This document shows positions 204 to 32,641 of a stretch of 64,000 nt of DNA, piece after piece. The DNA is taken from contig NMRA01000172.1 in NCBI GenBank assembly GCA_002633005.1, forward strand, positions 486,348 through 550,347. Direction: 5' to 3'. The stretch is from Phoronis australis. Lineage: Eukaryota > Animalia > Phoronida. The stretch's first letter is position 1. Each line of letters starts with the position of its first letter. The notes under the pieces were generated by a model. It made no database searches, was not told where the DNA came from, and was given only the letters and a program-made list of their open reading frames with translations. The position numbers and the translations under genes were made by a program.

Positions 204-3200
204 CTTTTTTCTCTCTTCTTCTCAGCTCTTCTTTTCGTCTCTTCTTCCTCCTCTAGCAGCGTTTTCATGTTTTCTTCGCTGACCGTTGCCTTAAGCGTCC
301 GATGAACTTCGTCGACGAGTGTTGTTAACTTCGCAAAGTTGCTTTCTAGAGCATTCTTGGGTATACATGTAGGTCGACCAAATGCCTTTGGCAAGTATTT
401 GTAAAAATCTAACACATCTGTGCATATAGACTGAATAAACCGCAAGTACTGACTCCATGGACTTTCCGTGCACGTTGCTCTGGTCTTTCTGTGAACATGG
501 TCGAAGGACTTAATGAGCACCTTGCAATTGGCAAACATCCACTGTTTCCCTACAGATGTCGTACTGGCAGAAATCGTCGCCGTGGTGGCGCACAAGTGAA
601 TTATATCCAGGTCGCCGACACGAGAATCCTCACTCGCGTACTTGCCCGATTTGGTGAGCATGTTCACTAGTATCTTACTGGCTTCTGACGTGATGTACAA
701 ATCTACGAATCTTTGGTCGTTGTGGAGAAGACAGAACGACAACAACAGGAGGCAACACTGTGCTAAAAGAACGTTGCTCGTCATAGAATTGTTGGGGAGG
801 GAGGGTGTCCTCAAGAGACACTCGAAAACACTAGACTCGAACAGCACGTCCCGGACGTCGGATATGAGAGCCATTGACACCACGTTTGCTATTATTGCAA
901 AGACGATTTCCGGATTTTTTACGCCTTTGCGTATGAGTTTAATTCGCCTCTGCAGAAATATAATAAAAGTTCGGCTTTGTGAGTCATTATTATACCATTA
1001 TAGATGCTAAATATTAAATGCTATTCTTCGTATCAATAACAAACACTAACTTGAGAGAGAAGCAACTATTATTTTGTCCTTGATCTCACGAATACATGTC
1101 AAAATGGCAGAGGTCTTTTGCAAAAGTACAACAGCAATAGTGATTTTGATAGTTCAGTGTATTTCGTTGAAACTGTAACCGCACAGAGATGCAAGTAGAT
1201 CATGGGCAAGCAGTGACTGTTGCAGGCATCGCAATTCGATACCTAGTGTTAAGCCAAGTCAAAGATTACGCAAGTCCACCGAGGGTGTTTCACGTTGTAC
1301 TCTTATGTTCGGCTACAATATGCTTTTTCAGGGACTTAATTTATCATATTTAGAACAGTGACGACACAGTGAATAGTTGTTAATGTTTGACGACCATAAA
1401 GTGATGCTATCTAAGATAGAAGTGGCCCAAACTTCACAACCTGGCTCTTTCCATTTCTTGTCAGTTTTTAGCATTTCTGTACCGGCCTTACTTTTTGAAG
1501 GCTCTTCCTTACCGTTCCTCGTCCCTCTCTTCCATTTTGGATCCGTCCTTCTCTTCAATAGACCATTCATAAGCTGGATGATAAAGCCTGTTGAGAGCGT
1601 TATCTAAACAGTTTTTATATTACCGTTTCAACGGGTTGGTTTACACGAAATGCTTAAACATGAAAACGTATCCCTGAGGACGGGGTATTGGTAGAAATAC
1701 CTTAAACAACGTTTCTTATGCCCCATGATAAGTCTAGCAGCAACAGGTGAACAGTGCATATACTTTATGACAGAGATTTCATTTGATACATGTACCTAGA
1801 CTTGGTCGTCTCTTACTTTGATGTGTTTCTGTATCTGTCCTCTCTGCATAATAACCGCGAGTAAATAATTGAAACACTCCTTAGTAGCATATATGAACGC
1901 CCAACAAATCGCTGTTAGTCCGTCCTGGAATAACAAATAATAAGCTATGAGCGCCGTAAAGTAGGTCTATCATCGAAAATTGACATCTTCAAATAAAACA
2001 ATACTGAACTTAAACACGATCTACATTTGAAGACGCACATCAAATTGCATTATTTTCATTTAAATTAGCTACGGTCACAAACTTAAATACCACTGCCGTT
2101 AGCTTTGTGGCAAATGAAGTACCCTTTTGTTTCTGAATTTTCATGGAGCTATCTATGATGGAAAGCAATTTTTCTCAACACCTTTTTAACTGTGAATTAG
2201 TGTGCTTAACTTGTAGTTTTGATGCGTACAAAAGAAGACTGGCGAAAAGTTTTGTTACGGCAAGATATGAATGCTGAAAAGCTTACACAGTCCTCCGAGA
2301 GAATATTAGCCTTTCCCTCCTCAACCAAGAACGTCGTAATTTCTTTGTGGTTACGTCCCGCTGAAAGCATCAACGCCGTGTACTTGTTCTTAAAAATAAA
2401 AAGTGCTATTACTAACACAAACGCTATCTTTATCTACGGAATTTTGCGTATTGCAGTTTACTAATCTAGTGATTTCTAACAGAGACGTTTCAAAAGAACT
2501 TATCAGGTCGCTTACTTCGAGAAAAAAATTGGAGGCACGTTTTACGGAAATTGACTTGTAAGTGAGGAGAATAAGACAGAAAAAGCAATCCAATTGTCAT
2601 CGAAGTCCTTACCTTTGTTTTCAAATTAACATCGGCACCCGCTTTCACGAGGACCTCCACATTGCCAGCGCAACCATTGAGCGCTGCGATCATCAATGCG
2701 GAAAATCCATCCTGTACGTAAAAAAGTCTTTTAAGAACAAAAACAAAAAGTAAGAATAAATGATTTTGGTGTTTGGTGTCTAAGGTTACAAATCTCAGGT
2801 TATCGCAGCGACACGTTTTCAACGTCAATTTCTGTTTGCCTCCATGATTATATCAATAATCAATTTTGGGTCCTTTTGGGCTTCTGTCGAGCATTTTCCA
2901 GAGTGAAAGTGTTCTTTCAAGGGTCATTCGAGGCTCATTGTGAGGGACACGAGTATTCATATTATATCGTTTACAGCGGATGGATCCAATGTCTTACCAG
3001 GCTGATATTTTGGTGTTTCTGGAAGGTGCATGTTTGAGCTACCACAATTTTGTGAATGTTTTACAGTTTCTGACACACTATTTCTGGAAGGCATTTTTGT
3101 GTCAAGATTACGTCATTCGATGATCACTGTGACAGAATTATTGATTTTAAATCAGTTTTGGTCGGTACCTCTAACACCTAGTGTTTTGTTTTCAACAGCA

Positions 3201-4559
3201 TTCCGTGGATGAGATTTTTGGGATTTCTGATGGGCCAAACCCAAAATGTATTTGTTTGTCATAAGCCATTTAGCTATCAGTGGTTTGCACTGAACCCTGT
3301 GCAATATTTTTATGTTGTAGCTAACTCAGTTTGACAGCCATTCTAAGACAACCAAAGTTACCCTTGAAGCATTCAGCTTTCACTGGCGTGATTTTGCGTG
3401 GAATAGTATAATCTTTGTTTCTGGGCAAGGAACTTGGTTTACGGAGCACACGCCTGGGTTCCATTCTCATGCAACATACTACTGAGACATTTCCGGAGAG
3501 ATCGAATTTTCTCCCGTGGGGCAACATTCTAGTTGCATGCAACAAAATGTTTATTTGAGCATGTGCAAAGAATTGGAAAACCACCAAGTAAATTATCATG
3601 ATGACACTAATACCTCATTCTGAAGGTCCTTCTTTGCCCCAGCGGATATCAGCGTTTTCACAACATCCGGGTCCGCTGAATGAGCTGCCTCCATCAAGGC
3701 TGTGGTGCATGCCTGTAAAGAATTGCGCAATATTGATATACAATAGAGCCATTTTGACTCACTTCTCAATGAGAAATACACGAGCACTCCAATTTCATCT
3801 TCGTCATTTTTTNTAAATCAGTTTTGGTCGGTACCTCTAACACCTAGTGTTTTGTTTTCAACAGCATTCCGTGGATGAGATTTTTGGGATTTCTGATGGG
3901 CCAAACCCAAAATGTATTTGTTTGTCATAAGCCATTTAGCTATCAGTGGTTTGCACTGAACCCTGTGCAATATTTTTATGTTGTAGCTAACTCAGTTTGA
4001 CAGCCATTCTAAGACAACCAAAGTTACCCTTGAAGCATTCAGCTATCACTGGCGTGATTTTGCGTGGAATAGTATAATCTTTGTTTCTGGGCAAGGAACT
4101 TGGTTTACGGAGCACACGCCTGGGTTCCATTCTCACGCAACATACTACTGAGACATTTCCGGAGAGATCGAATTTTCTCCCGTGGGGCAACATTCTAATT
4201 GCATGCAACAAAATGTTTATTTGAGCATGTGCAAAGATTTAGAAAACCACCAAGTAAATTATGACACTAATACCTCATTTTGAAGGTCCTTCTTTGCCCC
4301 AGCGGATATCAGCGTTTTCACAACATCCGGGTCCGCTGAATGAGCTGCCTCCATCAAGGCTGTGGTGCATGCCTGTAAATAATTGCGCAATATTGATATA
4401 CAATAGAGCCATTTTGACTCACTTCTCAATGAGAAATACACGAACACTCCAATTTCATCTTCGTCATTTTTTTCAAATTGGTCTTATCGACAAGTCTGTT
4501 TATTTAGTCAAAATCATCAAAACCATGGATTTGAACACACAAGCACACGCACACACACA

Positions 4560-4596
<37 letters not shown>

Positions 4597-5898
4597 ATTC
4601 CAAAAGTTGAAAGCCAACAGAAAATTCGCTTGATACGTTCAAGATAAAATCTCAAAAACACTACTGCAGTTTTCTGAATTATCATTTCGTTTCCTTTTAT
4701 GTGGACTTTCAGTAAAAATCGTAAAAATCTTATTGTTAGGTAGTCCTTCACACAAACGTGGAACTTTAATAAAGCTCAATTCCTCAACCTGGTTTGAAGA
4801 ACACTCCATAAAGCATGGTATGTTAAAGTGTCATATGAATCCGCTCATTCGTTTCTGAGATATGATGTTCCGAACTTGGACATTTTTCTAGGGTCTCACA
4901 TAAGGAATGTAGGCTAACGCCCGGTAGTATCTTCGGTGCTCCAAATCAATGAATTTGGCCTACTTCAAAGTTGTTTTTGTCGTCGACATAAGCATCGTGT
5001 CATTTTCACATTAATAGTTAGATACGGTGGCACCGGTGTGCATTCGAGCGTAAAATGAAACGTCCCGTGGAATTTGTAAACTGCTGTCCTGTTGTAGTAC
5101 GAGACTGGTTTTTGAGTAGGCCTGGTGGTTATTTCTGGACTATCAGTATGAGCTTTACTTAAGAATTTAACGTTTTACGAGTGTCCAATTTATTTAAACA
5201 CGGAAGTGAGTTGAGCAAAATCGCCAATCCAAATCCCGACCATGAGTTGCAGACGAAGTACTTGCCGGAAGTAAAGCGTGCCATGTCTGCCAAGTTTCGC
5301 TAGTGAATGATGACGTCACGGCTTAATCGTAAGATCACAGATTTCGTCCATTGAAAAGATACGGAGTTGGCGGTCCATGTACTATAGTCTATAATTCCAC
5401 GACGTCTAATCGATTTTTCGGCCTTCAATCATTTTCTAAGGAGCTGCAGACATCGTGTTCTGCGCAGTGTCCGATACACATGAGACTTCTGACCAATCAG
5501 ATACAAGCGTCCCCAGAGAGCACGCGCGGCTGACAGAAGTGAACAAACGTAATTCACAAAAGATGAGCATTACTCCCATGCTCATTCAAAAGTGGTGTGA
5601 TCCATTTTCTTTGTTAACGGTAACACCAAGAGAAACCTGGGGAAGGCCTACCGAACGCGATGCGCGTCACCATGGTCTCATCTTGCCTTCTGCATACCAT
5701 CAAGCATGGGGTCGACGGCGGTGGCGTTCTCGTGCGAAAGCCCTTTAAGTCACCAAGGTACCACAGAATGTACAAATAATAGTCACCAACGTTACTTACA
5801 TTGTACTTATGGTTAATGTTTGCCCCACTGTTGACCATTTTTCGGACGTATTTAGCGTCGTTGATACAGCAGCTAAAAATTAGTGACGTCATGCCATC
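204..5898 (-). CDS. Ankyrin-repeat protein, partial (3' part lies beyond the left edge); paralog of the ANK-pseudokinase-KEN gene at 11326-31050
   Basis: Phase-0 AG/GT-bounded exons, one ankyrin repeat each: 5800-5898 DGMTSLIFSCCINDAKYVRKMVNSGANINHKYN; 4274-4372 (duplicate at 3614-3712) ACTTALMEAAHSADPDVVKTLISAGAKKDLQNE; 2613-2711 DGFSALMIAALNGCAGNVEVLVKAGADVNLKTK; 2287-2388 NKYTALMLSAGRNHKEITTFLVEEGKANILSEDC; 1817-1924 DGLTAICWAFIYATKECF. Then a large exon 204-949 (RRIKLIRK...RDVLF...LLEEEEETKRRAEKKREK) ending at a GT donor. Start codon not identified. Confidence 0.85.
3148..4472. repeat. ~660-bp tandem duplication joined by a single N; probable haplotype/assembly false duplication containing one ankyrin exon
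   Basis: 3148-3812 and 3814-4472 are near-identical (a few SNPs, one short indel), and the junction is exactly the N at 3813. Confidence 0.85.
4535..4593. repeat. (CA)n microsatellite
   Basis: Imperfect then perfect CA dinucleotide run. Confidence 0.95.
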
Positions 5899-6396
5899 CT
5901 GCAACACAACAAGAACACATTCAATATATCTGCAAGCCTTCGAAAATTTAACAGCTTTGACGTATTAAACAATTTCCAATTCATTTAAGGGAAAACAGAT
6001 CGACTGGCCCTATGACGAACAATGCAATGAAAACCACCAAATAGGCCTATTACTTTTTAAGACCCTATTAGGGCACTTAACTTATTCTGAGAACGACCAG
6101 GTCGATCTTCACTGACATGTCGGTGAAATGAGCCGGCGGGAACGGGCAACTTTCTTAGTTTGCACTTGATGGCTCCAGATTTAAGGCTAAAAGTTCGAGT
6201 CTGATCTCGAAATTTCGAGTTTTTACTCGAAATCTCGAGTTTGTAGCTCGAATCCAGTAGGGGTCGTCAAATGCGAACGTGCACTGGAAACTTGTAAGAA
6301 AACCGTAATTTTCTCTGGTACAGACTAATAGCCACATGTCTTGAATTTGAGGAAGTAGACCGGTAAATTCTAACAGTAGTTTCAAATTTGATTTGA

Positions 6397-8677
6397 AGAT
6401 TAGACCCAAGGCCCTGAAATGTGTCAATTGTCCTTCGTTGCAACTTGTGCACTTACACCATAGTCATTCGGCCGAAACTTGATAAGCTCTTTTGCCAACT
6501 TTTGATTTCAAAAGTTGTGATAGAAGCAAACAACACACATCACAATCACCTAGAAATATTGTTGACGTTTTAAGTTGGCATTGTTCTCTTTAAGACTTGC
6601 CTTGTGATGATGAGGTAGTTAAATAGGTCATGGATCATTTAGTAAGCTCCACTCTCAATGGTTAATATCTGGCTAATATGGTTTACACTAATCAATGAAA
6701 AGCAAGGTCACATGTATAGAGCAACTTCCTGCATGCACGTTTCCAGCCCAGTTTCTTGGATTTGCTATCTAACTTTATATTGAACTTCTAGCCAAGAACT
6801 GATATTGCGTATAGTAGCTGACAGTATTTTGGAAAGGTGTAAAAAAAAGCCTGCAGTGAAATAAAACAAACACGTTTATTCAAGAACTCGATGCATTTGT
6901 AAAGGTTTTATATCGAAATTTGATGATTTATTGGTGTAAAACGATGAATTCAAGCGATAAGTTGACACACTAGTAAGCATGTTGTGAACGGCTGAACAGA
7001 CCGCGTTCGAACCGATTACGTCATTGGTTAATTTCAACACCTCGAGTCCGTCTGCCGTCAGGTGTAAGGTAAAACAACTGAACTTGCTGTAATCGAGTGG
7101 AACTACTCGATCTAAATTGATACATTATAGGTTGTTTTTGGGTGGCATTCTCCTTTGATATAATACATCATGTCTTGGAAAGACTTAAGATTTGAACCAA
7201 ATCTTATTAAAAACGAATCGTGTGCTTACAGTGTAGGTCCACATAAACTCATTGAACACTCTACAGCAATGCCTTTTAGGGAGGCCACTNCCTGTGCGTA
7301 CTCTGCCTCGTTATACTCGGGCTCAAACATGTACCCACCCACTGAATGTCCGTGAAAAAATTCCTCGTCACCACTGCTGTGAAAAAGGTCTCCGTCACTC
7401 ACACTACTGTCACTGTGATACGGGTCACCGACTCCAGCCATATACAGCTTACAGCACACTAAACAAACCCTAAATCCAACGTAGTTGAGTTCTCTACTAA
7501 CCTATCTTGCCGCAGAATACTCGCCGATAGAAAGTGGTGGCGACAATGGTTGAAAAACAGCACAAAACAAAAGTAGAATAGAACAGATTCGCACGGTAAA
7601 GTCAACGCAAAACCAAGTGGCGGGAAACGCTTGCCTCCTAAAACGTCACTTCCGGAGTAGCGGACGAGTAATTAATAAAATTACGATAAGCTGTAATTAA
7701 GTGGAAAATATGTCTAGGATAACCAACCAACCTTATTTTAGCTCAAAATGACATGGAAAAGGTTGCCTTCGCCTTTAAAGATTAGACCCAGGGCCCTGAA
7801 ATGTGTCAATTGTCCTTTGTTACAACTTGTGCACTTACACACCTTAGTCATTCGGCCGAAACTTGATAAGCTCTTTTGCCAACTTTTGATTTCAAAAGTT
7901 GTGATAGAAGCAAACAACACACATCACAATCACCTAGAAATATTATTGACGTTTTAAGTTGGCATTGTTCTCTTTAAGACTTGCCTTGTGATGATGAGGT
8001 AGTTAAATAGGTCATGGATCATTCAGTAGCTCCACTCTCAATGGTTAATATCTGGCTAATATGGTTTACACTAATCAATGAAAAGCAAGGTCACATGTAT
8101 AGAGCAACTTCCTGCATGCACGTTTCCAGCCCAGTTTCTTGGATTTGCTATCTAACTTTATATTGAACTTCTAGCCAAGAACTGATATTGCGTATAGTAG
8201 CTGACAGTAAGAGTATTTTGGAAAGGTGTAAAAAAAGCCTGCAGTGAAATATAACAAACACGTTTATTCAAGAACTCGATGCATTTGTAAAGGTTTTATA
8301 TCGAAATTTGATGATTTATTGGTGTAAAACGACGCATTCAAGCGATAAGTTGACACACTAGCAAGCGTGTTGTGAACGGCTGAACAGACCGCGTTCGAAC
8401 CGATTACGTCATTGGTTAATTTCAACACCTCGAGTCCGTCTGCCGTCAGGTGTAAGGTAAAACAACTGAACTTGCTGTAATCGAGTGGAACTACTCGATC
8501 TAAATTGATACATTATAGGTTGTTTTTGGGTGGCATTCTCCTTTGATATAATACATCATGTCTTGGAAAGACTTAAGATTTGAACCAAATCTTATTAAAA
8601 ACGAATCGTGTGCTTACAGTGTAGGTCCACATAAACTCATTGAACACTCTACAGCAATGCCTTTTAGGGAGGCCACT
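6397..8677. repeat. ~900-bp direct duplication (6397-7289 and 7779-8677) around a single-N join
   Basis: The two copies are near-identical. The first ends exactly at the N at 7290. Confidence 0.9.
7291..7774 (-). mobile_element. End of a putative Kolobok-type DNA transposon (TTAA target), with the start of an accessory ORF
   Basis: The minus strand reads TTAA|AGGCGAAGGCAACC (TTAA at 7775-7778). An acidic ORF start MAGVGDPYHSDSSVSDGD...GGYMFEPEY is cut at the N. The YMFEPE motif is, from memory, typical of the P2RX7-C-terminus-like accessory genes of these elements. Confidence 0.5.
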
Positions 8678-9052
8678 AAAATAATTTGGGCAAGGCTGCC
8701 TGCATTCTAACATGATTGACATTAAGCCTAACATTGGTAATCATGACCTTGAAAACGTCTGGTTACCATGGTAACGATACCCAATTCAGCTTAGTACACA
8801 AGATTCAATTCAATCTTGCCTGCTTTCTAACGTGAGTTTGCTGTCAAACCTGGAATTTCTGGTTTCAACTGGCAAAATAACTGGTCACCATGACAACGAT
8901 GCGTATTCCAGCTTGGCGACCCCTTAGTTTCAAGGGGGGGCCTGACTATCAGTACTTTGATCATGGTTTCCTGCTTCTAACGTGAGTTTGCCATCAAGCA
9001 TAAAATTACTGATTTTGGCCTGCTGACTAACTGGGCGTGATTAACTGATATA

Positions 9053-9466
9053 TCACCTGCATTGTTTTTTAAAGATGTAACCTACCGATCGAGCAGTTGA
9101 GTCCACATTAAGCAGCTCCAGTTCATCTAACTGGTCGTCGTCAAAAGTCACATACGGTACGATGTTTGTGGTTTTCCGAATTTTGCACAATTCTGAAACT
9201 AATTTCTTAAAATCGGCAAATTTGATTCCTTTTCCTTTGATAACCTTTTTCCTGACACATTTTAGAAAAACCGCATCAGTAGAATTGGCGCGTCCGTCTT
9301 TTGCCGTATTCGTGTTCAAACATCTTGTAGAACCTGATTGAAATGTATCTTTGAATTCCACATCTAGCTCAAACGAATCTTTGTCGTCATCTCCGCAGTC
9401 CCACCCGGTTACGGCAGAAACCCAACCGACGGTCGACATTATAAGCAATAGCTCTATAAAATTCAA
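9053..9466 (-). CDS. Orphan ORF, 137 aa, no recognised family (possibly transposon cargo)
   Basis: Uninterrupted ORF with protein-like composition (GWDCGDDDKDSFELDVEF...LKCVRKKVIKGKG) in a TE-rich interval. No homology recognised. Confidence 0.3.
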   Translation of the reverse strand: MNFIELLLIMSTVGWVSAVTGWDCGDDDKDSFELDVEFKDTFQSGSTRCLNTNTAKDGRANSTDAVFLKCVRKKVIKGKGIKFADFKKLVSELCKIRKTTNIVPYVTFDDDQLDELELLNVDSTARSVGYIFKKQCR

Positions 9467-9953
9467 ATATGACTAGCAAAAATTTAAACCGCTGATTATC
9501 AAACACTTTATGCTCTGAAAAACGTTGCGTTCGCAGTGAGATCTAAGTTATTATTTCTTGCATTTATTGCGTCACATATACAAATGTTTGACCGCACAAA
9601 CAAGACTAAACGATCATCATAGTTAAGAACGCGCACAGAGTGGCATTGTGCCGGAAAACGTGAAGTTTGAGATATTTATTTTGCACTATATCGTGACCAA
9701 AATTTTGTCGAGATTTACTCAGGTTGCGATGGCATTGGAGAAGAATCCATTGCTATGCAAACATGGAATCTCTTTGATCAGCTGCGGATCGTGTTCAACC
9801 AGAGAGAATATGCTTCATTTCTTGAGAAAAGGTGAACAACGTCAGGGTGAAATGAACAGTGTACGACTGCTGGACCAAGTTCTTCAAGACTCCTCTCTTT
9901 CAGTCATGTGTAAAGATGAACTGGTAAAACTTAGATATTTTTGCTGTCGTGAA

Positions 9954-10100
9954 TTACATATGACATAGTGCATACAAACACTCATTTTTGCACAACTCAG
10001 GTGCTGACGGCAAAAGTGATGCAACCGAGTGACTTTTAAAACATGAGCCACACCACCGATAAGTACGTTTTGAACAACCATAAGCAGCACCAGCAAATCC
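9954..10100 (-). mobile_element. Degenerate piggyBac-like C-terminal cysteine-rich domain remnant
   Basis: Minus frame reads AAYGCSKRTYRWCGSCFK...ELCKNECLYALCHM*, matching the C..C.K.T...C..C....LC...C....H pattern. The upstream frame is broken. Confidence 0.4.
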
Positions 10101-11325
10101 CCTGTTTAGTCCCATTTTATTGATGAAAACGCAGTACAGGAATACTTAGCCTTCATACAGCTAGCTGGTTGGCTAACAGTAAAGTTCCCTTCTGACATGA
10201 TCATAGATCGCCACCTGCTGCATCACATTGGTGAGCTACAAATAACATAGGTCGAGAAAATAAAACTTTAGTAACACAGGTGCCAGAGATGCACATTTCC
10301 GTTAAATCCAACTGGTTACTGCACTGTACACATACATATATAAGATGAAGGTAGTCGTCTTTGAACTTCAACAAAAACAATAATGCGCGTCAAAACACAG
10401 TCACGATTGTCAAACAAAGCTATTTCTTTCACTTGAATCCGCCTCGACTTTGAATTTACACACATTTTCCGAGTTTTATAAGTTTGACTAGTTTTCAGAC
10501 TACGCTGGTTTGGCTGCCTTCAGTTCTATATAATTCTGTACAGCATACGAAAATTACCGAGCGCTCTTTGGACGAAGTCTGTCGAGAAAAATGAGAACAC
10601 GCAAGACCATGCAAAATCGCGCGAGTGTTTCGCGAGTATACTCACTGGAGTAACCAAATAAAATGACGGCTACTGAAGTGATTAGTTGGTGAGACTGCAG
10701 TGTTGAATTATGGGATAGCATGCATGAATTATTAGATGTAACTCGCTGTTTCAGTTAAATGAAATTATCTCGCCGCAACTGTATTGTTTTCGTATTGTGT
10801 CTCGATGAAGATTTCATCAGAGATAATTACTTCAGTGAGTCGCAATAGCTTCATTTGACAACTAGGAGTGAGAATTACTTCTCTTTTCACGCGAGCGTGT
10901 TTGTTGAAGTTTGAAGATATTTACCTGTATTTCAAATGTAGCGTAGTACTGGTGGTAGTATAGAAGTGGATCGTTAGGATTTCGATCAAGTGTGGCTTGT
11001 TAATAGGACGACATTAAGAACTTGTTGTTTTCGCTGTCGAGAAAATCGAGAGAGATATTCATTTCCTTCGCTTTAGAGACCACCCTTGTTGCAACTTGAT
11101 GTCTCGTGTATACACTAACTGTGTATAAGTTGCTCACCATACAGGTCGCAGATATACGAAAGAAAAATCCTCTATCAGCACCGTTCACCAAGAACACCTT
11201 CGCATTCACCTAACGAACTTTGCAGATACATTTATATAGTGTATGTGTCATATGTTATCTTCGTTGTTACCCGTTGCGGACAGATTTGTAATGCTGCATT
11301 TGACAGCCTCCATGCTTACTTCCAG

Positions 11326-14300
11326 TTCGGGATGCCAGCGCTGTGCCTCGTGTCGTCTATCGGTCACGAAGAGAGTGTGAAAAAACTACTTCACGCGGGA
11401 GCTGACGTCAATTGCGTTGTACCCACGGTACTTTGAATTATACATTTTGAAAACTCCTAAATCGGCAAGCATGATTATTGCTTTCTGGAAGTTTGACGGA
11501 TGAGACCAAAGACCACTCACCTCGAACCACAGAATTTCTGTTGTAAGAGAATGAGAAAGTGATTGGTGCGCAAATTGTACATGTAAATAAAACACAGTGA
11601 AATTATAGTGAATCTGCAAAAGTTGTCGTTTATAATGTGCCGCTCAGGTACTGCATCTGGAATGTAGTAACTGACAGAACTAGTAATGGTTGAAATCGCC
11701 AAAATAAGTTTTGCACCATTCTATAAGCGTGTAGGACGATTCAAGAGTCTGTTTCACTATAATGTCGCAACTTTAAGACGTTTTTACACATTATCTAAAA
11801 ACCAAAATTTATGACTGGCCCTAGTTGCATGAAAATTATTCGCTGGATAGCAGCAATGACGTCATTACAACCCGTCTCTTGGGTATTGCTGAACACTGCT
11901 TCTGACGTCATGCAGCAATTCAACTTATCCATCATTACTTCTGAAGCTACATGCAACCTGAGCCCTGTATCGTTAATTGCCATTTAGACATTTGTTAACG
12001 AAACGTCCTAAAGCTTCTAAATTCTATTGAAACATGCATCAGGTCTTCAAGCTGCTGCCCTCAGAGGCCACTCGTATTATTACGATCTTAATGTCTTGCG
12101 TCATAACTTAAAATTAAGGGGGTGCGGATTTTTGAATTTTGATATTTTGTACTTTGTCTTTGGCCTACAAAATTTGTATTTCACGGAATTAGGTTTGCCG
12201 GCACCTCTGGTAACAAAATAAAGTTTACACGGGTCACTAAAAAATCAACTTTTATTTAAAGCAACGATTGAAAATTTTTGACAACGGGTTAAATTCCTTG
12301 TTTTGTGATACTGTTATTTTTAACGGGCTCACTTATATTCCTAGTTTACCGATATTTTGCGTCAGCGAAGGAATAAAAGTATTTTTTCTCGATTCTGACA
12401 CAAACGACTAAAAAAGGTTTCTAAAGATTACGACTATAAAGGTCGTAAGTTTTTTAGGTATACGACTCCCAGATCACCAAATGAAAACCCAAGTCACACT
12501 TAGCGAGTACATTTACATCTAAGGTGGGATTGATCAGTTGCGGCATTTTTACATTTTAGGACAAGAACTCTCCGTTGATTTTGGCGACACAGGGAAGGCA
12601 TATTGAACTTATCAAGCTACTGATTACAGCCGGAGCTAACCTAGCGCATTGCAACAACGTGCGTATGAAGTCATTTCCATGTAGCGGGAGACGTAGAGAA
12701 TTTCATTGGAGATTGACTAGAGCGTGACTCTCAACCATCTCTTTCATTTTGTTGTCATCGGCACTCTTAACAGAAGCGTTGACCGCAGATTCAGAATAGT
12801 TACTTGACATGCTGTAATATCAAGACAATTGCGAAATATCAAGAAGAGATTAATTCAAACACTGAAACTATCAAACTCAAGTTATAAACGTTGCGTCCGT
12901 ATCTCACGGACATCAACTCAGGGGCGAATCCAGAATTTTGAGTTAAGGGGGGGCAGGACAGAGTATTGGCCAGGATTTTGTCTGCCAGACTTTGGCACCC
13001 CCGAACTGCCAAATGGAATCTGGCAGAATTCTAGGTGGGCGATGGCCCCCTTGGCCCCCCTCTAAATCTGCCACTATGTATTGACCTCCAAATGAAGTTC
13101 TGGTGCGGTAGATCAGCGGTGGTTCTGTCCCATCTCAGACCACCATCTTATTGAGAGCTGGTTTCTCCACGCGTTCATGTAGTGTCCCCTTAACCTCTTC
13201 ACTAAAACAGTAGTCTCCCCAATCCGAGATAACGACATCCTTGGTTTCAAAATCGTGTCTTGCTCTGTTGAGATGACTACGTGCAGTCGTATGTGGTCCC
13301 ATAATTGTGACCATGAATTGCTGACACACAATCACGTTCAAGTACTGTTTCGTATCAGCAACATATCTGTCTGAACACTGAGACGCCGTGCGCTACACAC
13401 CATATACTCCATGAGACTTGATCCCCTTCGGAGCTCAATGCAAGCCCAAATTGTCGCAACAACCCAAATTGTCACAACTTCGAATTGCGACAATTTGGGT
13501 CAGCGCTGCCCATGATGAATTCACCAGTTGGGTTTTTCTTGTAATACAAACTGTTTAAATGTCCTCTACTCACACCGAAGAACCGAAATAATAACTGTCA
13601 CCGAGGAGTCCATCAAGAGACCCAAGTCAACTATCTTCAACAGAAAGCATGCCTAACAACATTAGAAATACCAAACCTGGAAAACCCCATCTAGAGCCTT
13701 TCGTCAAGATATGGAATACCTACCGTTATGAAATTTGTCTTACACTCTTCCTTCTATAGTACATGTGATTTCAGTGCCATATACGACAGCGGTATTTAGT
13801 CTAAAGCTGGTAATGTAACTAAGGAGCCATAAAGAGAGAGACCATTTCTGTGCTACGGTAGCACGGTGCATGATATTTCAACTTCCTCACATATGGGACA
13901 GGAACATCGCCGATTATATACAAAATAACTTGATTTTTTGTGAATTTATGTAGAACGCAACCCTGTCAAGAACGACTGTAGATAATGAGCACATTAACCT
14001 GCGGATGTGCTTCGTTTGTTGAAATTTATGTTACACCCGAGTATCCAAGCAGACGTGACGCGACTGAGATGAGTGTACATGTAAAAAATGAATCAATTAC
14101 TGTATTGCATTTATTTCTTCGGTTAAGTAACGTTTCATTGACTGGCGTACGTTAGCATTTTGTTACTTTCTTGATGTTGTTGAGAAAGTGTGATTTCTCG
14201 TTTACAGGAGGGCAACAATGCTTTCATGGTGGCTGTGTCGACTGGAGATGCACATCCCGTCAACCTCCTTTGGCAGTATAGGAGTAACTTTAATATTAAC

Positions 14301-17300
14301 CAAGAGAACGTGGTATGGTACAGTGTGCGCTATTAGACTTGTCAAGCGATATGCACAAACGAAACCCTTCGTTAACATTGTGCACCTGCTGGTGTATATT
14401 ATTCAGCAACACTCATGATATTTTATGTCCTAGTAAACATATAGACTTAATTCACGCCGACAGGAGGCGCGTTTCAAAACGAGGCTTGCTACGATAGCTC
14501 AGTTGACTTATTGGCATAGCTGTATGCTGCGCTGCTTGAACGGCTGTTTTACAATTCCTAAGGACGTTGAGATTCGGAAGCGTTGGGTAGTTGACATACG
14601 CCGCGACGAAGGAAAATATGTGCGTGTAAAATTTTTAAATGTTTTCGAAAAGTTAGATCATATTTTAATTGTCGTATCTCGGTTGCCGAGCATCACGACA
14701 ACGACCGGAGAATTTCCAGCCAGCCAGAAACTACGGATTGAAACATGATGCATTTTTCTTTCAAAGAAGGACAGGGCTCTCAATCCCTCGATTTTGGGGA
14801 CAACCATTTCCCTAATTCCCTCTCAAAAATATTGAAAACAATCATGTGAAATTCCTCCCACGAGGCCTAAAAATTCCCCTAGTGATTGAAAAGTTCTCTC
14901 CGGAGTTCAAATCACCTGTAACCATACAGGTGACAATTTGAAAGAGCACAAAATGCTACTTCAGACAGAGCCTATGAGAGCTTGCAACAGGACGGGGGTG
15001 CTATATGGTGATCGGGAGGTAGATTTCCTCCTCACAAGGCGAAAAAGTTCCCCTCTCAGAAGTCACAGACACTTTTTCATCTCATTTCGATGACCGAGGC
15101 CCATGAAGAAACATAATAACCATGCTTGCTCTGTCCAGTTATCTGAAATTGAGTCACTAAAACGAGGTTATGCTTTAGATGAACGATTTAGGTGCTTTAA
15201 TTTTAAAATTCAACTTCGCCCAGATTGATATTTGAAACCTAACACATGAAATAGACGTTCATGTAAGAATTATTAAAACCAAGAAAGCAGAATCGATGAT
15301 CAAATAATTTTTATTTTCAATTACGAGCCTGGTTTTTTGTTTTGATAAAAATATATTTAATAACATCAATTATTCTTTCAGGTCAATGACAAATCAACTG
15401 TTAGTCCCGGTAGTCCCCACCTCACCAGGCCCTAGGCTGTAGTTGATGTTAATATTCTTTATCAACAAATTAAACCAAATGTGTCTAATCGCACATGAAA
15501 GCAAAATGCGATGAGCCACCACTGTCGAATAGTCAAATCGTCAACAATACGAGCAGATGACTTGGTTCGCGTAGAAAGCATTTTTATCAACAAATTTACA
15601 AGAAAAAGCTTAACCCTGCATTCAGCATGATACCTAATCCGTAACATTGCGATCACCTCAATTTGGTCATGTTTACTTTTCATGCTTCGAACCTTGTTTT
15701 CCGAAAAAACTTATACCCTTTCGTCAGACAATTCTTTGGTACATTGACTTGTTCTCTATTTTTCTACGTCTCTGCGGTTAATTATCGACACATTTTAAAG
15801 ATTTAATACCAAGCTTGAACTCGAAAGACCGGCCATTTAACTCACGCAATGTCAACTTCTGCTTTGTTTATCGTAGTAAGCCTCGCTTTGGATTTTAATG
15901 TCCGCCGAGTGAATTAGGTCTATAGTGTGCCATCATTATCAAGACTACTTTAACGTTCACAAATGCAGGCCTGGCGTGCGTTCAGTAGCGCTTGGACCTA
16001 AGCTAGTACCCAAGCTAAAACCTAGCCAAAGTCACGTGCTTTCATTTGAAATACACGGCAATATCTCACGTAATCTCGCGAAGTCTTACTTTTTAGCGAG
16101 ATTCTAGCGTTACTGGCTATCCAGAGAATACTAGACTCATTTCCGCAATGGTACTTTTCCTCTCAAATGGCTGGTATTTTTATAGCTTTATGTTCCTCCT
16201 ATTCACATGTGCGGATTTCAGTCACTGGCAGGTCATTTTCAACCTGGAGAATAATTGGTCGTATGACTTTTGTTCGCACATACAAAGAACGTTCACCTCC
16301 GAGGGTAATTTGAGGCAAGAGAAATACCCGAATTGTTCCGAATGGCTACAGTATTTTTTCCATGTCTGGCTCATCCCGAACCTTCTATGGCGTTTTCGTT
16401 ACTTCAAATTATCGAGGAGACGCTGTGAATTGAGTTCCAGACTCCCCGTTTGGGAGACCGGGGTTTGAATCCTGGCTTTACTGGCTGACAGTCGAGCATT
16501 GCACAGGGGGGTTTCCTAATCCTCTGAGCCCACTCTTACTATTGAATGTATGCAAGGGAAAGCATGAGAACCTGGATATAATGGCAACGCGATTTTTGGG
16601 ATTGTGTTAATATTAAATTTATCAAGCCTCGGAAATGTTACATATTTGTGCATGTGCGAACCAAAACTAGAGAAAAGATTTGGTCAAAATAAAAATCACG
16701 CCAAACCACCTAGGTTTGAAAAGAAATGTGCGACGTCATTCTCATTCCGTTGTCCACCTGCTGATGTAGTCTAATCTTATTTCACGTTTTGTACTTTTAT
16801 AACAGAGATGTTTCGGAGCATTTTTTTCATTTTGACAATCGCATGAGTGCTGTCACTCTGATTGAAGCTCTCACATGTGGAGATAGGGAATATTACCGTG
16901 GGATAATCGGAGGCTACGAAAATACCCGATGTATTCGAGATGGGTCTGGCAAGATCAACAAGTCTCATGCACATTACAAGCTAGCTTGGCAGTCAGAAGT
17001 GTAGTTCGTCACGGAACTGACCGTTTGGCCCTCTGCGTTTCATCTTTACAGAAAGGCTATACGGCTATTCATCTGGCAGCTGAGCGACAATGGGAGAGTT
17101 GCGTGAACATGCTGATATGTGGTGGAGCTGATAAACAGTGGCAAACATACGTAGGTACCATCGCCGACCTCACTCTACAATTCATAATATCCACTCAGTT
17201 CGAGTAAATATCCAATTTAAGTTGACTAAATACTAGACTCGGAAAAGCATCTACTTGCAATAAATGATGTAATCCGAGTAGCCGTCCGTAGACCATGTTT

Positions 17301-20300
17301 TTGCGGGTAAATGAAGACCTGTGAAAAGGCCGCGTTTCGTGAGTATGCTCGGCTGCTTACTAGCCTATCCTAGCAAAATTTTAGCCACTGATGTGCTTTG
17401 TTGGTCAGGTTAAAACGTCGAATTACGGTGTTGAATTCATTAACCGAGGGATATAATTCACTGTTTCCCTTCCACGAGCGAAGAGTTTTTGTCGCACGTG
17501 CAAACTAACTATTGTGCCTATGGAACTCATCTCCACTGAGCTGCAGTGAAAATGGTTTCGACTAGAAATAGCTGGTGAAAGGGTTTGAGTTCAGAGAAAA
17601 ACTTTAAGAGCCAGCCATCCTAGATATTCCCCAGTTCAATGTGTAGAAAAAACAACCTTTTCAAGCCTAAACGTTATACCAAAGTGTAACTTCAAAGGGT
17701 GATCATCGAACATGAACATCCAATTTGCTATGCCTTTTACATTATTTGGCCCCGCTACATGAATCAGGGACAGACTTTGACAGAAAACTTGGTGGTACAG
17801 TAAAAGCATGCTAATAATTAAGTACAAATACTCTGTCGCATATCCAAATTTTTTTGTATGAAGATGTACCCGTATCGTTGTAGGACGGATCCACTGCATT
17901 AATTATAGCAACCAAAAAAGGTGACAAAAAGACAGTGGAGCGCCTCCTGGCGGCGTCTGCAAGTGTTGACATAGAGGATAACGTAAGTGTCTTTGTATAA
18001 CAGAACGTATTTCATCACACATGTACGTGGGTAAACGCACAAACGATGATTTCTTTTCCAATTATGATAAGATTATGTTGTGTTAATTATTGCAAAAATG
18101 TATTTCAGGAGAGTGCAACCGCTCTGTGTTATGCCATAAGAGATAAAAAGTGCGACCTTGTCGATTTGTTGATGAAAAAATTATTTTTCTCCAAAGACGA
18201 CAAGGAAAGTTACGTGAGAGTAAGTGTCGTTGCTTTATTTTTATTTTTCAGTCCGTTTTAGATTTAATAACATTACACTGTTTTTAGTCAATGTGGAGCG
18301 TGTTTGTTCAATAAATTAGTAAACAATAACCTTGCATATTTGACAGAGACGCATTGACCTCTTGAGGACGAAGACAGTGTCCAACGGCACAATCAGTAAA
18401 GAAGATTTCTTCGATTCCATACTTATCCCCGTTATTCAAGAGCTGTGCAAACATCAAGAATGTCGAGATATCCTGTTTCGGATACGTGCTATGTTCCAGC
18501 TGATACCGTTCCTAGACACGTATCTCACCAACGAAGAGGTTGCGCAAAAGACCTTCATCACCTTATGCATGTTGATGTACGTGTACTCGAGCACGCCCGA
18601 TTCCAGATTTGTAGACCAGTTTGTCAGTGCCAAAGGACACGAACTAGTCCTAAAAAGTCTTTATTTCTACGACGCCAGCAACAGTTACGATCCCAAGATA
18701 ATTTTCACTGCCTTTATGCCAATCATCAGCATCTATGCTACACTAGAAGGTCGAGAATGGCTGAAGAAGAATTATTACAAGCTGTCCCAATACTCCACGA
18801 TTTTCGAAGCCGGGTGTGACATCTCATCCTTTCTGGACTGTTGCCGCGGTAAATTCATGGGAACATGGCAGAGATTTAAGTGGCACTTCACCAAAACTTC
18901 GCAAGAACAGGCTGAGCTTGTCTGTGCAGAGTTATTAGAGAATGAAGAAAGGGAAAAGGCAAGGGAGCGCGCGAAAAAAGAAAAACGGCGGGAAAAGAGA
19001 AAGAATCGAAAAATTCAACAACGTGCAGAGCGTGAATATGCTGAAAAACTTGTAGACGGAGATGATTCATTGTTCGATGACGTCAACAATTCTCCCGATT
19101 CTCAAAATTGTAGTTACACGCCGAAAGGAAGCGTCATAGCAGACTTTCTCAGTGGCGTTCAGCAGAAAGTGAAAGGTCTGCTAGGGAAAATACCAGCGTC
19201 TCCACCGCGTGATCAGAGGGAGAATGTAGACGACATACAGAAGGTTCAAGAACAGCATGCAAAGAAGAAACGAAGGAAGAAGAACAAACCGAAGAGAAGC
19301 GAAGAGGATGAAGTTTTGTTGAACCACTGTGCAATAAATCCTGTATTCGACAGGATACAGTATTCGCCAAAGGTGATAAAGTCACGTACAACTAAAGTAC
19401 CAAACCTTCCCCGAGTAGAAGACATTATAGAGCCTTGTGAAAATGTTAGTGGTGATGCGCCTGAGGTACTAGGGGCTATGGCTACGCCGGAGAGGGTTGG
19501 TATCAATTGTAGCAAATTGAGCTTGCCTTGCCTTGTGGCCGGACCAGAACATAAGGTCACGAAAGATTTACTTGAATGTAATCTCACAAACAGCGGTCTT
19601 GTGCCGTTAGACACGTCGTCACCAGTGAAGTCGTACGAACAATATGGTTCAGTAAATATGAACGAAAACGCAAGAGGATACCGTAGCCAGGCTCCTCCCA
19701 GAGTTAACATATCGCTAGATGACGTAACGGAAGATAGTATGGCTGGACTGTCGCCCATAGGAACACCCAGGGAGGTAGACACAAACGGCAGTCTAACCAG
19801 CAGCTCTATAACTCCTGAGAAGTACGGCATGAGTCCTCGACCAAAACATGGCAAACATATCGTTCGTTTTAAGGAAATGAAATGCGATGGTCCACCATCT
19901 TCCTACGCGTTTTGTGCAGTAGGCGAGTCTCGTGTGGGCAGTATGTCACCCAGAGGTCGAACAGCTACTTGGGCAGAAATAACGAAGAAAGATGCTGTCA
20001 AAACTAGACCATGGAGTGCAACAAATATTAGGTATGGCTCACATGCTTCAAAACTTTCACAACCTGTATTCTTCCAACCAAACGACAATTTTCCTAGATC
20101 AAAGAAGTCAAAAAGACCGCCGCGATTAAGGCCTTCCCAAGACACGAAGTTAGACATTATTTCTCCTACGAAAGACAGTCGAATCGTTAAGTCAACAAAT
20201 GCCGTCGAAGGAAAACCAGCCATTCAAAAAGTGAACCTGCGTGACATGAAGATACCACTTTCTAGTTTCATACCAGATCTTTCGAGACTTAACAATGAGA

Positions 20301-23300
20301 CAGGTGCAGGTGCTGTTGAAGATCGAGCTACAGAAACTGACAACGAACGAAGAAAAGATCGAGAGAATAAGTCATACGAACAGCAACGTGAAAAGTCGGT
20401 AGAAGTGAGTTGCTATCGCATGAAACGAGATGCGCAGAATACTACAATCGAACATGTAGTCGACGTTGACGCAATGGCAGAGGACCCAGACTATGTCCGC
20501 ATGCAGATGGAGGCACTGGATAACTTCAGCAAAGATTATAAAAACCTTAACTTCGTTCAAGATGTTAGCGGCTGGCTGTCGGAAACGTCTGACGGTGACG
20601 TCAGCAGCGAGAATGGTGTAGAGAAGAAAGAAGGCAGCGTTTCTTCAGACGCAGACATGGAAGTTCAACGGATACTTCAGGAAGACGTCATCGTGCACGA
20701 AAATAACCCCATTATCTCACCAGTGACTAAGAGTTACCATAATAAATGCACTGCTCCTCCCGTTTGCTTCTATGATTTTGGCATAAAGACATCTCACGAA
20801 TTTTACGAGTCGGTTACCGGTGACAGAAAGCTTTTCCGCGACACAAATCTTCTCACTGACATTCGGGTGGAAAACATTCCTGTGGCACCAGACGTGGAAT
20901 TTGCTCGGTTGACACCAGATCCTGATGATGGGTTTTCCAATTTGGATAACACGGAGTACATATACTATCCCGGAATGGATCACAAAATGCTGCAGATTAG
21001 AGGACTCTTCCAGAATACGGCCAACAATCGCTTTCACAAACTGATACAAATGCAGTTTGAAGCTGCTAACGAGCGCAAAGTTATTGGCGAGATGTCATCG
21101 ATGGGCAGGTTCTACCAGTCGCGCTTCAGTCCTAAACAATTTGTTCCACCTCCTGCGGGAAGTCTTTGGTCCAACTGTGGTAATCGGCAGGTGGCAGTAG
21201 GTGTCCCAGCGAGCAACGCAGTGGATTGTCGCGACAATGACTCGTCCATAACGTGGGTTCCTAAAAGTCAGCGTTGGAGATCAATCTTCAAGGAGTTGAC
21301 GGCTCTGTCGATTGAAACACACACTAAAGTTGGTCCCATATTGTTTCACGCCCACAATCAACGCTTCGGTCTAACCAGCAGGTATCGCCAGTAAGAATGA
21401 TTACCTTATCTAGATTTGAAAGTACCACGAACCTGATATGAGTTGAGTTTCGTAGACGTAAGAATCTTGCGAAGAAAGCAAGTGTAATCACGTGCTTTGC
21501 TTGTGGTACGTGACAAAATCTCACGATGTTTTGCACGATATATTGCGTTTTCACGAGGTTCTTGTGACTACGGAACGCACGCTTAACCTATGTCAAACAC
21601 TGCTTTTTGATTTACACCACTTACCATTGTATAATTGCCCCTTACTCAAAGTAAAAATGAATTGTAGTTCGCCATTACTCAAGTCCAACTTAAAAAAGCA
21701 TAGTTTGCACCCCATTTTACCATAGAGGTCTCTGCTAACAGTCTAAGCGTGTGCATTACCGTAACAGTACCACGGAGCTTTCGTTGAGATCTCAGTCGTA
21801 GACAACCCTAAGTCATTCAGATCAACCAAATATGTATTGAGCGAATGGCGGAGATCGGAAACAAGCAAGGAACTGCGTCACTAATTACCCAATGAGTGAT
21901 CGTAAACTCCGAGTGCTTTTAACAGACCCAAAGAAGAATTACCTCAGAGAGCTCAGTAACAATAAAATAAATTAAAGTTGAACTTGTAGGTTTGTTCCTT
22001 TTCTGTGGTTGCTTGCCAAAGTAGTTAGAAGCACATCTTGTAGCGACGATGTGAATATGAAGAAGGCTGGAAATTATCGAATGTTTATAAAAACGGGTTA
22101 TGTGGCGAAATTGATCCACTGAAACTAATTGAAGCGTGTCCAGTTAATATTTCACGTGGTGCTGGGGATTAACACTGCGCACATAGCCCACGAGGTACGT
22201 CATTGATGCAAAAGGTCACCTGTTTTCATATTTTTGTTTCATTTCACATTTACAAATTGTCAGTGAATACAACTGCACTTTCTTTAGAGTAGATTATGTT
22301 AAAATAGCATTGTCGTTTAGTTCTTGTTATGCATTAGCACAGTTAGGAGCATGCAAATACATCTTTAAATATAATTTGCGCTCTTACCGAAAGAGGCCTC
22401 GGGAGATTATCGAGAATAGAGTTTAATACGGTGTCTTGACCTTGAGAGTCATTTATGAGCCGAGCACGAATTGAAACGAGCTATCAATTCTTGCCGAGCC
22501 CTACATGTACAATCGCTTCCAACCTAAGTATGGGACGAATGAGACCGTTGCATAACCGAAAAAGGTGTTGATCATCAATTATTTGGTAGCTTTTGACAGT
22601 AGCTAAGTGTGTTCGTGGAAGCTCAAATAATACGAATCTTCAGTTACTGTTGAATCCGTCCGTTTTCACATACACTTTGAATGCTTAACATCTCATTATT
22701 TCTCTACTTTTCATCTGAAGCAATCACCGTGTTCTCGTCGGATGAGTCATGTTAAAAGCTTGTTATCTGTTGCTCTGACTGATATTTTTCATGTCAGCCA
22801 AATTATGTCTTTCGAAATTCTTGTCTTTCCAGCAACCATTCCTCAGCTTCCTCTTATCTCGGTATATTGGAGGACGGTACAGAAATCTCAGTGCGGCGCA
22901 TGAGTCTGGATGACTACGCTCATTTAAAGAAAAACTTACCTACCATGCTCTATCCAGCAGTCAGACACGAGTCGTTGGCCAAGTTTCTGGTATATATATT
23001 TACTCTTGATGCTGTTCCAGAAGTTAAACACTGTAGTTTTTTGTGGACCTAGATTCAGACTATGGCTAAAAGTACATGAGAACACGAAATATCAACAATC
23101 GACTAATGTGTCCAGGAAAAGGCTCAAAAACCTTTTTACTTTGCGAATAACATTTTTAAAGTGAAGCACCTTTCCGAAACGATAAAATGTAGGCCAAAAC
23201 AGCATAGTTAGTTATGGTCTTGTGTTTTCTTTGTTAAAAAATTGCACAAAAGCACGCCAGCAAGAGTAAGCAAGGCTTGAAACACCACGGTTTGCCAAGC

Positions 23301-31478: not shown

Positions 31479-32641
31479 TTAATCAGTTTGCTTTTCACAG
31501 ATGTATCCCATGCCAATCGAACAGTCACGCTGTATCCATGCGCCAGTCGTCGCGTTGAGCGCTACGCAGACATACTGTTGGCCTTCACTTCTGTTCGCGC
31601 CCCGAAGTTCTGAAGCATCTGAAACATATTATCTCACCATTGAAAATCCGCAAGTCATTTTAAAGAAAATCGAGAGTTCATTTTATATAAGAATCGTGGT
31701 GTTTTCCAACCCACAAATCTAGTAACAGGTACAAGTTTAGTAATTGCAACAATCTCGCCAGTTTGATACCGTTGAAGTTAATTGCGTTTCTCGATAGAGT
31801 TTCAAGTTTAAACTGATCTCAAAATTGCATGATGTTATTTCATGAAAGGGGTAAAAATGAAACGTCTAATCTGCCAATTTGACTTTCTTGCTACCGAAAT
31901 AAAACACCGGTTATGATTTTGTTTCATCCAAGTTAACAAGATAATCTTCTTTACTACTAATTTGTAGAAGTTGCCGTTACCGTTTGCCCAGTTAGTGAAG
32001 ATAACGTCATCACCAGTGTTGTCCCATTTAAATTGACTACTGCTGCTTGTTTTGCTTGCTCCAATCCACAAGCTCGCCACCTTCAGGCTTTCTTCGGCAT
32101 TACTGACCATCGCCTTTAGAGTGGCCTTCAAATATCTTTGCTCTTTTCCATTGTTGATGTTAACCAAGTATCCCCCTGATTTCATACAATAAATTGATGC
32201 CAGTGACCTGTCCGAGACTGAATCAACAATCATGTAACACGACCCGGAAAAGAGGGTGTACCCCCAAGAACAGGTTGGTGCCGGTGTTGTGGGTATGACT
32301 GCTTGTAGCGAGTTGGCCGCTACCTGACACACGCGTCTGGTTTGATGACAGCACTTCTTGTTCCTTGCCATGCTCAAAGACACCCTTCTCTTTATCGTCT
32401 CCAAGCTGTCGCGAACGTAGCTGTGAAATGCATTGAGGTCGCGTTCCATATTCTGTAGTCGTGCGTCAATTTTGGACAGAGCCAGTGCATTCCTTTCGTT
32501 TAGATCTCTTGCTTCTGAGTCTGTCGGCCTAGCCACTGAGTCAGCTTCAGTAATAGGAATTACCTCTGATTTTACTCCGTCATAAAGGAACACAAACACG
32601 ATCCAGAAGGACGACATTCTACCCGCGTTGAACAGTTTCAT
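31479..32641 (-). CDS. Secreted C-type lectin domain protein (signal peptide, coiled coil, CTLD), copy A
   Basis: Exon 31981-32641 (hydrophobic leader FWIVFVFLY; CSWGYTLFSGSCY; C...GGYLVNI...EQ; LWIGA; F.NW) joins in phase 1 to exon 31479-31618 (CVALNATTGAWIQRDCSIGMGYICEKQTD*). Confidence 0.9.

What the first reader, a model, noticed from the sequence alone, without database searches (positions are those of the whole stretch)
204..19020. Head-to-head pair of diverged paralogs: candidate sensor/executor system
Seen: the minus-strand gene mirrors the plus-strand gene. Both have one-repeat-per-exon phase-0 ankyrin exons, a longer last repeat exon (DGLTAICWA.. vs ESATALCYA..), then a large exon starting RRIKLIR vs RRIDLLR, containing RDVLF vs RDILF, with a charged helix LLEEEEETKRRAEKKREK vs LLENEEREKARERAKKEKRREK. 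Their outermost recognisable exons point away from each other, 5.4 kb apart. A candidate ATG|GTGAGC first exon on the minus strand at 11138-11140 would bring the two 5' ends very close or overlapping. Inference: an old inverted duplication sharing a bidirectional promoter. As KEN RNases act as dimers, a dead copy linked head-to-head with a possibly active one would resemble paired plant NLRs or caspase-8/cFLIP logic. The left gene's C-terminus is outside the window, so its kinase-KEN is only predicted.
Basis: partly seen in the sequence, partly recalled or inferred. Interest (0 to 1): 0.78.

Follow-up and report, generated by a model that had tools for sequence, protein, structure and literature searches.

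The report
Head-to-head dead RNase-L-like gene pair
Two related genes in an invertebrate animal are transcribed back to back from starts about 130-150 bases apart; one encodes an RNase L-like protein whose kinase and nuclease sites are missing, as they are in its mollusc relatives, so the pair is likely a co-regulated set of non-enzymatic scaffolds rather than a sensor wired to an active RNA-cutting partner.

Summary
The pair is real; the promoter was misplaced. RNA reads put the minus gene's first exon at 9086-9494 and the plus gene's at about 9620-9647 to 9923, so the 5' ends lie about 130-150 bases apart. The proposed exon at 11138 is unused. Spliced reads cross both Ns, which flank duplicated allelic sequence. 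The left gene is a true but very diverged paralog. The right gene is ankyrin-ARM-like-coiled coil-disordered-pseudokinase-KEN, orthologous to an uncharacterised mollusc family. There the kinase catalytic Asp is absent in 24 of 24 and the KEN Arg in 23 of 23, so deadness is inherited, not a decoy role. The left gene's C-terminus lies outside the window and was not seen; no left-type ortholog was found. A sensor/executor pair is unsupported (about 8%). Unexpected: an internal divergent start at about 19040-19180 makes most pseudokinase-KEN mRNA without the N-terminal module, plus an antisense RNA over the ARM exon.

The parts
9086..9494 (-). Left gene exon 1 (5' end about 9494, in-frame ATG 9439)
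   Evidence: Joint 5897-9085, 63/44 reads; 8 molecules end at 9494 in X6; frame
5800..5898 (-). Left gene ankyrin exon
   Evidence: Joints; Pfam Ank E 0.0057
4274..4372 (-). Second copy of the 3614-3712 exon; likely allelic duplicate made by the assembly at N3813
   Evidence: reads join 5800 directly to one copy
3614..3712 (-). Left gene ankyrin exon
   Evidence: Joints 3711-5799 and 2710-3613; Pfam Ank
2613..2711 (-). Left gene ankyrin exon
   Evidence: Joints; Pfam Ank
2287..2388 (-). Left gene ankyrin exon
   Evidence: Joints; Pfam Ank
1817..1924 (-). Left gene last, longer ankyrin exon (donor 1817 inferred; joint to 949 not listed)
   Evidence: Joint 1923-2286, 75/50 reads
204..949 (-). 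Left gene ARM-like plus coiled-coil exon; likely ends at a donor at 204 (in-frame TGA at 202-200 if unspliced)
   Evidence: RNA depth about 77/64; profile score; model pLDDT 78, ARM-like matches Z up to 10.7; donor score
9495..9620 (.). Inferred shared bidirectional promoter between the two 5' ends
   Evidence: Depth-based estimate of plus 5' end 9620-9647; one DNA contig 8887-10278
9620..9923 (+). Right gene exon 1 (start approximate; in-frame ATG 9729)
   Evidence: Joint 9922-11325, 22/21 reads; 71/30 reads at 9800
11326..18219 (+). Right gene six ankyrin exons: 11326-11427, 12560-12658, 14208-14309 or 14312, 17052-17150, 17884-17982, 18109-18219
   Evidence: joints (those after 14208 and 17884 not among the rows listed); Pfam Ank for 3 of 3 scanned
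18347..21390 (+). Right gene large exon: ARM-like domain, coiled coil, long disordered region (donors 21381 and 21390)
19037..19183 (.). Inferred internal divergent promoter just after the coiled coil; first in-frame ATG downstream 19478
   Evidence: Sense depth 20/25 at 19099, 112/70 at 19183; antisense 5' ends at 19052 and 19037; ATG
18334..19052 (-). Antisense RNA over the ARM-like exon (3' end not mapped)
   Evidence: Depth 35.6/24.3 in bin 18339-19005 against 22/16 sense
22833..26963 (+). Pseudokinase exons: 22833-22989, 24630-24821, 24983-25088, 25910-26007, 26437-26630, 26880-26963
   Evidence: Joints 66-129 reads; Pkinase hits in 3 of 6 exons; motifs
28132..31050 (+). KEN exons: 28132-28201, 28495-28610, 30912-31050 (stop)
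   Evidence: Joints and loose end matching 30912; PF06479 E 0.0006 in 2 of 2 scanned; open frame

Best explanation
The locus is a head-to-head pair of diverged paralogs, transcribed from 5' ends about 130-150 bases apart, that likely arose by an old inverted duplication and likely works as two co-regulated non-catalytic scaffolds. Shown: both genes are spliced and expressed; the right protein (about 1665 aa) has ankyrin, ARM-like, coiled-coil, disordered, pseudokinase and KEN parts and lacks the kinase catalytic Asp and the KEN Arg and His; most of its kinase-KEN mRNA lacks the upstream exons. Inferred: the kinase-KEN unit binds RNA or partner proteins without cutting; the ankyrin-ARM module is a protein-binding head; the left product offers a second, fast-changed head made from the same promoter, which tunes or diversifies what the right gene's pathway binds; any kinase-KEN it carries would be inherited dead.
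For: Stranded joints and 5' ends. Paralogy: profile test, matching exon borders, 23% identity over 328 aligned residues of the joined models. Family: 9 of 18 hits scanned carry a kinase domain, 8 of them KEN too; named hits are all molluscs, one locus per species seen. Motifs: HRD Asp absent 24 of 24, DFG Asp absent 23 of 23, KEN Arg absent 23 of 23 (mapping to IRE1 RNKKHH). The R and H of this motif are needed for KEN activity (PMC3710099, passages). The right gene looks constrained: 15 of 22 listed coding variants are silent. Two short motifs in the disordered region recur across the family. Both genes have reads in X5 and X6 and none in X7.
Against: The left C-terminus was not seen. No function is measured. 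Read ends from short-read RNA-seq are not mapped start sites. Co-expression rests on 3 samples of one study, and X7 was not shown to express other single-copy genes (only 55 reads at 99% or more). The left branch is long (2.65-2.73 against a median 0.57) and unplaced, so the duplication cannot be dated against the loss of catalysis. Mollusc homologs keep the KEN Asn and His (23 of 23), so a changed activity in them is possible. The homologs in the profile were first found with a profile that held the left exon.
Confidence: 0.5

Rival explanations
1. Split-protein or dominant-negative model: the left gene makes only ankyrin-ARM-coiled coil (plus at most a short tail) and acts in trans on the right gene's products, supplying a head to the abundant headless isoform or competing with the full-length form.
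For: The left big exon stops at the coiled coil, with an in-frame TGA right behind it; the right gene's internal start lies at the equivalent point. Left joints (32-75 reads) outnumber most upstream right joints (8-39), and kinase-KEN joints are 66-129. RNA depth fades near 200-300.
Against: A donor at 204 scores 5.6, inside the 0.6-9.1 range of 23 modelled donors; the DNA beyond is 45% T with no AATAAA or ATTAAA, as an intron would be. So the gene more likely continues.
Confidence: 0.2
2. No functional link: the arrangement is the leftover geometry of an inverted duplication; the left copy drifts or has a separate job, and shared expression is a by-product.
For: Very long left branch; no left-type ortholog; divergent pairs under 1 kb are common, over 10% of human genes (PMC12672016, passages).
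Against: The left gene keeps an open 536-codon frame, family motifs and a confident fold despite about 23% identity, which needs long selection; it is well expressed.
Confidence: 0.22
3. One reading: the left gene carries an active kinase-KEN and the right gene is its dead sensor or brake, as in paired plant NLRs or caspase-8/cFLIP.
For: Head-to-head layout and paralogy hold. The left gene probably continues out of the window, and its unplaced long branch leaves room for a split older than the loss of catalysis. The right KEN lost even the His that molluscs keep.
Against: All aligned family members lack the catalytic Asp and the KEN Arg; no active ankyrin-ARM-kinase-KEN member and no left-type protein was found; most right-gene kinase-KEN mRNA comes from another start, outside the shared promoter's control.
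Confidence: 0.08

Closest known systems
RNase L (vertebrate; PDB 4o1o, 4oau)
   Same: Soluble ankyrin - pseudokinase - KEN order; kinase-KEN part matches RNase L (E 1e-20 for a mollusc homolog).
   Different: Six ankyrin exons followed by an ARM-like domain, coiled coil and about 740 disordered residues; KEN Arg and His absent. PMC6307210 (passages) reports no RNase L in Lottia, oyster or Lingula, yet Lottia holds this family.
IRE1 (PDB 6xdb, 2rio)
   Same: Best structural-sequence match of the kinase-KEN unit (E 7.5e-25).
   Different: No luminal domain or membrane anchor seen in the model; ankyrin-ARM N-terminus; catalytic motifs lost.
Uncharacterised mollusc proteins (e.g. Patella KAK6174412.1, Argopecten XP_069113852.1, Biomphalaria LOC106072425, Lottia LOTGIDRAFT_235319)
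   Same: Same architecture and order; 29-37% identity in both folded halves; same dead kinase and KEN Arg loss.
   Different: They keep the KEN His and mostly lack the DFG Asp, the reverse of the right gene; whether they have a head-to-head partner could not be tested.
Divergent paralog pairs (collagen IV pairs, search listing only; paired plant NLRs, recalled)
   Same: Paralogs head to head on a short shared promoter.
   Different: No shown complex, and no shown active executor.

Membership tests
RNase L | Ankyrin repeats, kinase fold and KEN in one chain | tested here: met
   Right gene
RNase L | KEN catalytic RNxxxH motif | tested here: not met
   Right gene has V and Q at the R and H places; homologs Y and H
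RNase L | Ankyrins joined directly to the kinase | tested here: not met
   About 1000 residues of ARM-like, coiled-coil and disordered sequence lie between
RNase L | 2-5A binding by the ankyrin repeats | not tested
   No residue comparison or binding test was made
IRE1 | Active kinase motifs VAxK, HRD, DFG | tested here: not met
   ISVR, QRN, DYN in the right gene
IRE1 | Luminal sensor domain and membrane anchor | tested here: not met
   The N-terminus is ankyrin repeats by RNA-joined exons; no membrane predictor was run
Mollusc ANK-ARM-CC-pseudokinase-KEN family (right gene) | Whole architecture, colinear similarity and short motifs in the disordered region | tested here: met
Mollusc ANK-ARM-CC-pseudokinase-KEN family (left gene) | Ankyrin-ARM-coiled-coil module | tested here: met
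   18.1 bits against 8.0 best shuffle; conserved G, W, L, E columns
Mollusc ANK-ARM-CC-pseudokinase-KEN family (left gene) | C-terminal kinase-KEN | not testable with these tools
   Outside the window; no genome held
Sensor/executor paired genes | Head-to-head paralogs on a shared promoter | tested here: met
Sensor/executor paired genes | One partner catalytically active | tested here: inconclusive
   Right gene dead; left C-terminus unseen; family dead
Sensor/executor paired genes | Pair conserved in relatives | tested here: inconclusive
   No left-type protein found; gene neighbourhoods of animal homologs not available

The most novel reading that the evidence does not exclude
Lophotrochozoans carry an undescribed RNase L-like pseudoenzyme family, and in this animal it has become a modular system: one bidirectional promoter makes the full-length dead enzyme and a swapped ankyrin-ARM head from the paralog, while a second divergent promoter inside the gene makes the headless pseudokinase-KEN and an antisense RNA that turns down the native head, so that sensing heads are exchanged on a shared RNA-binding core.
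Probability: 0.12. Interest if true: 0.8.

Novelty: new variant of a known kind. Interest (0 to 1): 0.45.

Why it matters
The useful result is less the pair than the family. Molluscs are reported to have OAS but no RNase L (PMC6307210, passages; PMC9334734, passages, for Aplysia lacking both). They do hold a conserved ankyrin-...-kinase-KEN protein whose catalytic sites are lost or altered. This gives a testable handle on what KEN proteins do without cutting and on how the RNase L architecture arose. The locus also shows two divergent promoters that separate the head from the core. If the left gene proved to have an active nuclease, it would be an animal paired-gene RNase system.

Tried and rejected
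No whole genome, so the DNA left of position 1 could not be read; a DNA contig runs 2858 bases further left but its letters are not given. Word-index searches with either big exon found nothing; the full profile search did. No RNA holder was listed by the index; raw reads of the same species label were laid instead. Complex prediction of the two ARM-coiled-coil parts gave no answer (score 0.01, alignments unused): no evidence either way. Single-sequence fold of the right domain was poor (pLDDT 52). Foldseek gave no match at E 0.001; the wide search gave ARM-type rows at Z 8-10.7, under the level that is telling for helical repeats; Atlas hits were ARM families at 0.85-0.91, leads only. The tree could not place the left gene. 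The MLA10 hit to a KEN exon (E 0.86) is chance. The bacterial promoter scan is irrelevant here. Paper searches for the family found nothing pertinent: and six locus ids (0 papers); subscription papers and supplements were not searched. Rejected: first exon at 11138; six left ankyrin exons; misjoin at the Ns; 3' library bias as the cause of the depth step (about 3- to 5-fold within 84 bases, with antisense starts beside it).
Full report
Observation. The window is intron-rich animal DNA. A splice-site scan recovered the ankyrin exons on both strands, and 7 of 7 scanned hit Pfam Ank. The quoted motifs are present. The two big exons are only weakly alike by BLASTP (E 0.029). A profile of 14 homologous domains, built without either window protein and without the coiled coil, scored the left exon 18.1 bits; the best of 1000 shuffles scored 8.0. 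These homologs came from a search seeded with both exons, a mild circularity, though each resembles the right exon far more. Five ankyrin exons and the border of the big exon correspond one to one. Paralogy holds.

Transcripts. Raw RNA reads with the same species label (about 18-19% of each run read) are stranded: CT..AC joints occur only in first-mate-plus reads, GT..AG joints only in first-mate-minus reads. The left gene's 5800-5898 exon joins to 9086 (63 and 44 reads in X5, X6), and 8 molecules end at 9494 in X6. The right gene's 11326 exon joins back to 9923 (22 and 21 reads); depth puts its 5' end at about 9620-9647. The 5' ends are thus about 130-150 bases apart. The candidate exon at 11138 is unused and lies in the right gene's first intron. 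X7 has no reads on unique exons of either gene, but it was not shown to express other single-copy genes, so this is weak support for co-regulation.

Assembly. Both Ns flank direct duplicates 97.6-97.8% alike. Reads use one copy of the doubled ankyrin exon, and joints cross both Ns. These are likely allelic overlaps; they do not invert anything. The promoter lies in one DNA contig (8887-10278).

Right gene. Seventeen exons give an open frame of 1665 residues (one more if the donor at 14312 is used): ankyrins, an ARM-like helical domain, a coiled coil, a long disordered region, kinase fold and KEN. Searches found 20 and 24 homologs. All named ones are mollusc proteins without assigned function, one locus per species seen; five unnamed ones form their own clade. 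I aligned 24 (23 of the 24 hits, dropping one isoform, plus P0021). The HRD Asp is absent in 24 of 24, the DFG Asp in 23 of 23 with that region, the VAxK Lys in 19 of 24, and the KEN Arg in 23 of 23 with a KEN; the KEN Asn and His are kept in those 23. The right gene reads ISVR, QRN, DYN and has lost both the Arg and the His. The mapping to IRE1 RNKKHH is; that R and H are needed for cutting is from PMC3710099 (passages). Deadness is therefore a family trait. Of 22 listed coding variants 15 are silent (the tables were cut, so this is a subset). Two short motifs in the disordered region, W-[AS]-[DE]-aliphatic and F-P-x-L, recur in most homologs; that such motifs mark RNA-granule proteins is recalled, not tested.

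Internal start. Sense depth rises from 20/25 reads at 19099 to 112/70 at 19183, and antisense reads with 5' ends at 19052 and 19037 cover the ARM-like exon more deeply than sense reads (35.6/24.3 against 22/16). Upstream joints carry 8-39 reads, kinase-KEN joints 66-129. The likely cause is a second, divergent promoter just behind the coiled coil. Its first in-frame ATG (19478) would give 1019 residues with both short motifs, the pseudokinase and the KEN. Database models of Physella and Mytilus californianus also begin at or after the coiled coil, but may be partial annotations.

Left gene. Seven exons give 536 open codons. Its helical domain folds with pLDDT 78 using the family alignment and resembles ARM repeats at Z up to 10.7, rmsd 4.1, 169 aligned, which is not specific for helical repeats. 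Its branch is about three times the right gene's and unplaced. No left-type protein was found. The exon ends at the coiled coil. RNA covers an effective 366-440 of bases 1-667, and the reads that run off the stretch are about what its right end explains. A donor at 204 scores like real donors and T-rich DNA without a canonical poly(A) signal follows, so the gene likely continues outside the window; a TGA at 202-200 would end it if unspliced. The loose-end table was cut before this place, so neither is shown.

Mechanism. Best reading (0.5): two co-regulated non-catalytic paralogs; the right one a scaffold whose kinase-KEN likely binds RNA or proteins without cutting, the left one a second, fast-changed binding head.

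Comparison. It is built like RNase L but fails the KEN motif and the direct ankyrin-kinase join; it is not IRE1. PMC6307210 (passages) lists no RNase L in Lottia, oyster or Lingula; PMC9334734 (passages) notes the OAS-RNase L axis absent in Aplysia. Five searches found no paper on this family in the open library; supplements were not read. Divergent gene pairs are common in themselves (PMC12672016, passages). Verdict: a real head-to-head paralog pair of an apparently undescribed pseudoenzyme family, a new variant of a known kind; the sensor/executor claim is unsupported; interest 0.45.

Noticed in passing
window 18334-19183: Antisense RNA over the ARM-like exon and an abrupt rise of sense depth: a likely internal divergent promoter.
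   Followed up: partly
window 21381 / 21390: Two in-frame donors at the end of the big exon (67/66 and 19/18 reads), differing by three codons just before the kinase.
   Followed up: no
window 6392-7289 and 7774-8677: Second direct duplicate (97.6%) beside N7290, likely allelic; it lies among high-copy repeats (DNA depth in the tens of thousands).
   Followed up: partly
P0050, P0040: Physella and Mytilus californianus models start at or after the coiled coil, like the short isoform inferred here; may be partial models.
   Followed up: partly
window 31838-32686 and 35188-35964, minus: Two similar ORFs with signal-peptide-like starts and a C-type-lectin-like region (label recalled, no scan run).
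   Followed up: no
window about 43150-50650, plus: Exons that look like VPS35 (label recalled from the translations, no scan run).
   Followed up: no
window about 55900-60300, minus: Exons that look like inositol oxygenase (label recalled, no scan run).
   Followed up: no
window 14437-14745 plus; 29181-30140 minus: THAP-like fragment in a high-copy intronic repeat, and broken reverse-transcriptase-like fragments (labels recalled).
   Followed up: no
window 1512-1575, minus: Purine-rich stretch with AG and GTAAGG ends in the left gene's last intron; by hand it does not keep frame; the joint into 949 was not among the rows listed.
   Followed up: no
P0001, P0004, P0008, P0011, P0013: Unnamed single-exon homologs forming their own clade apart from the named molluscs: the family may reach beyond molluscs.
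   Followed up: no
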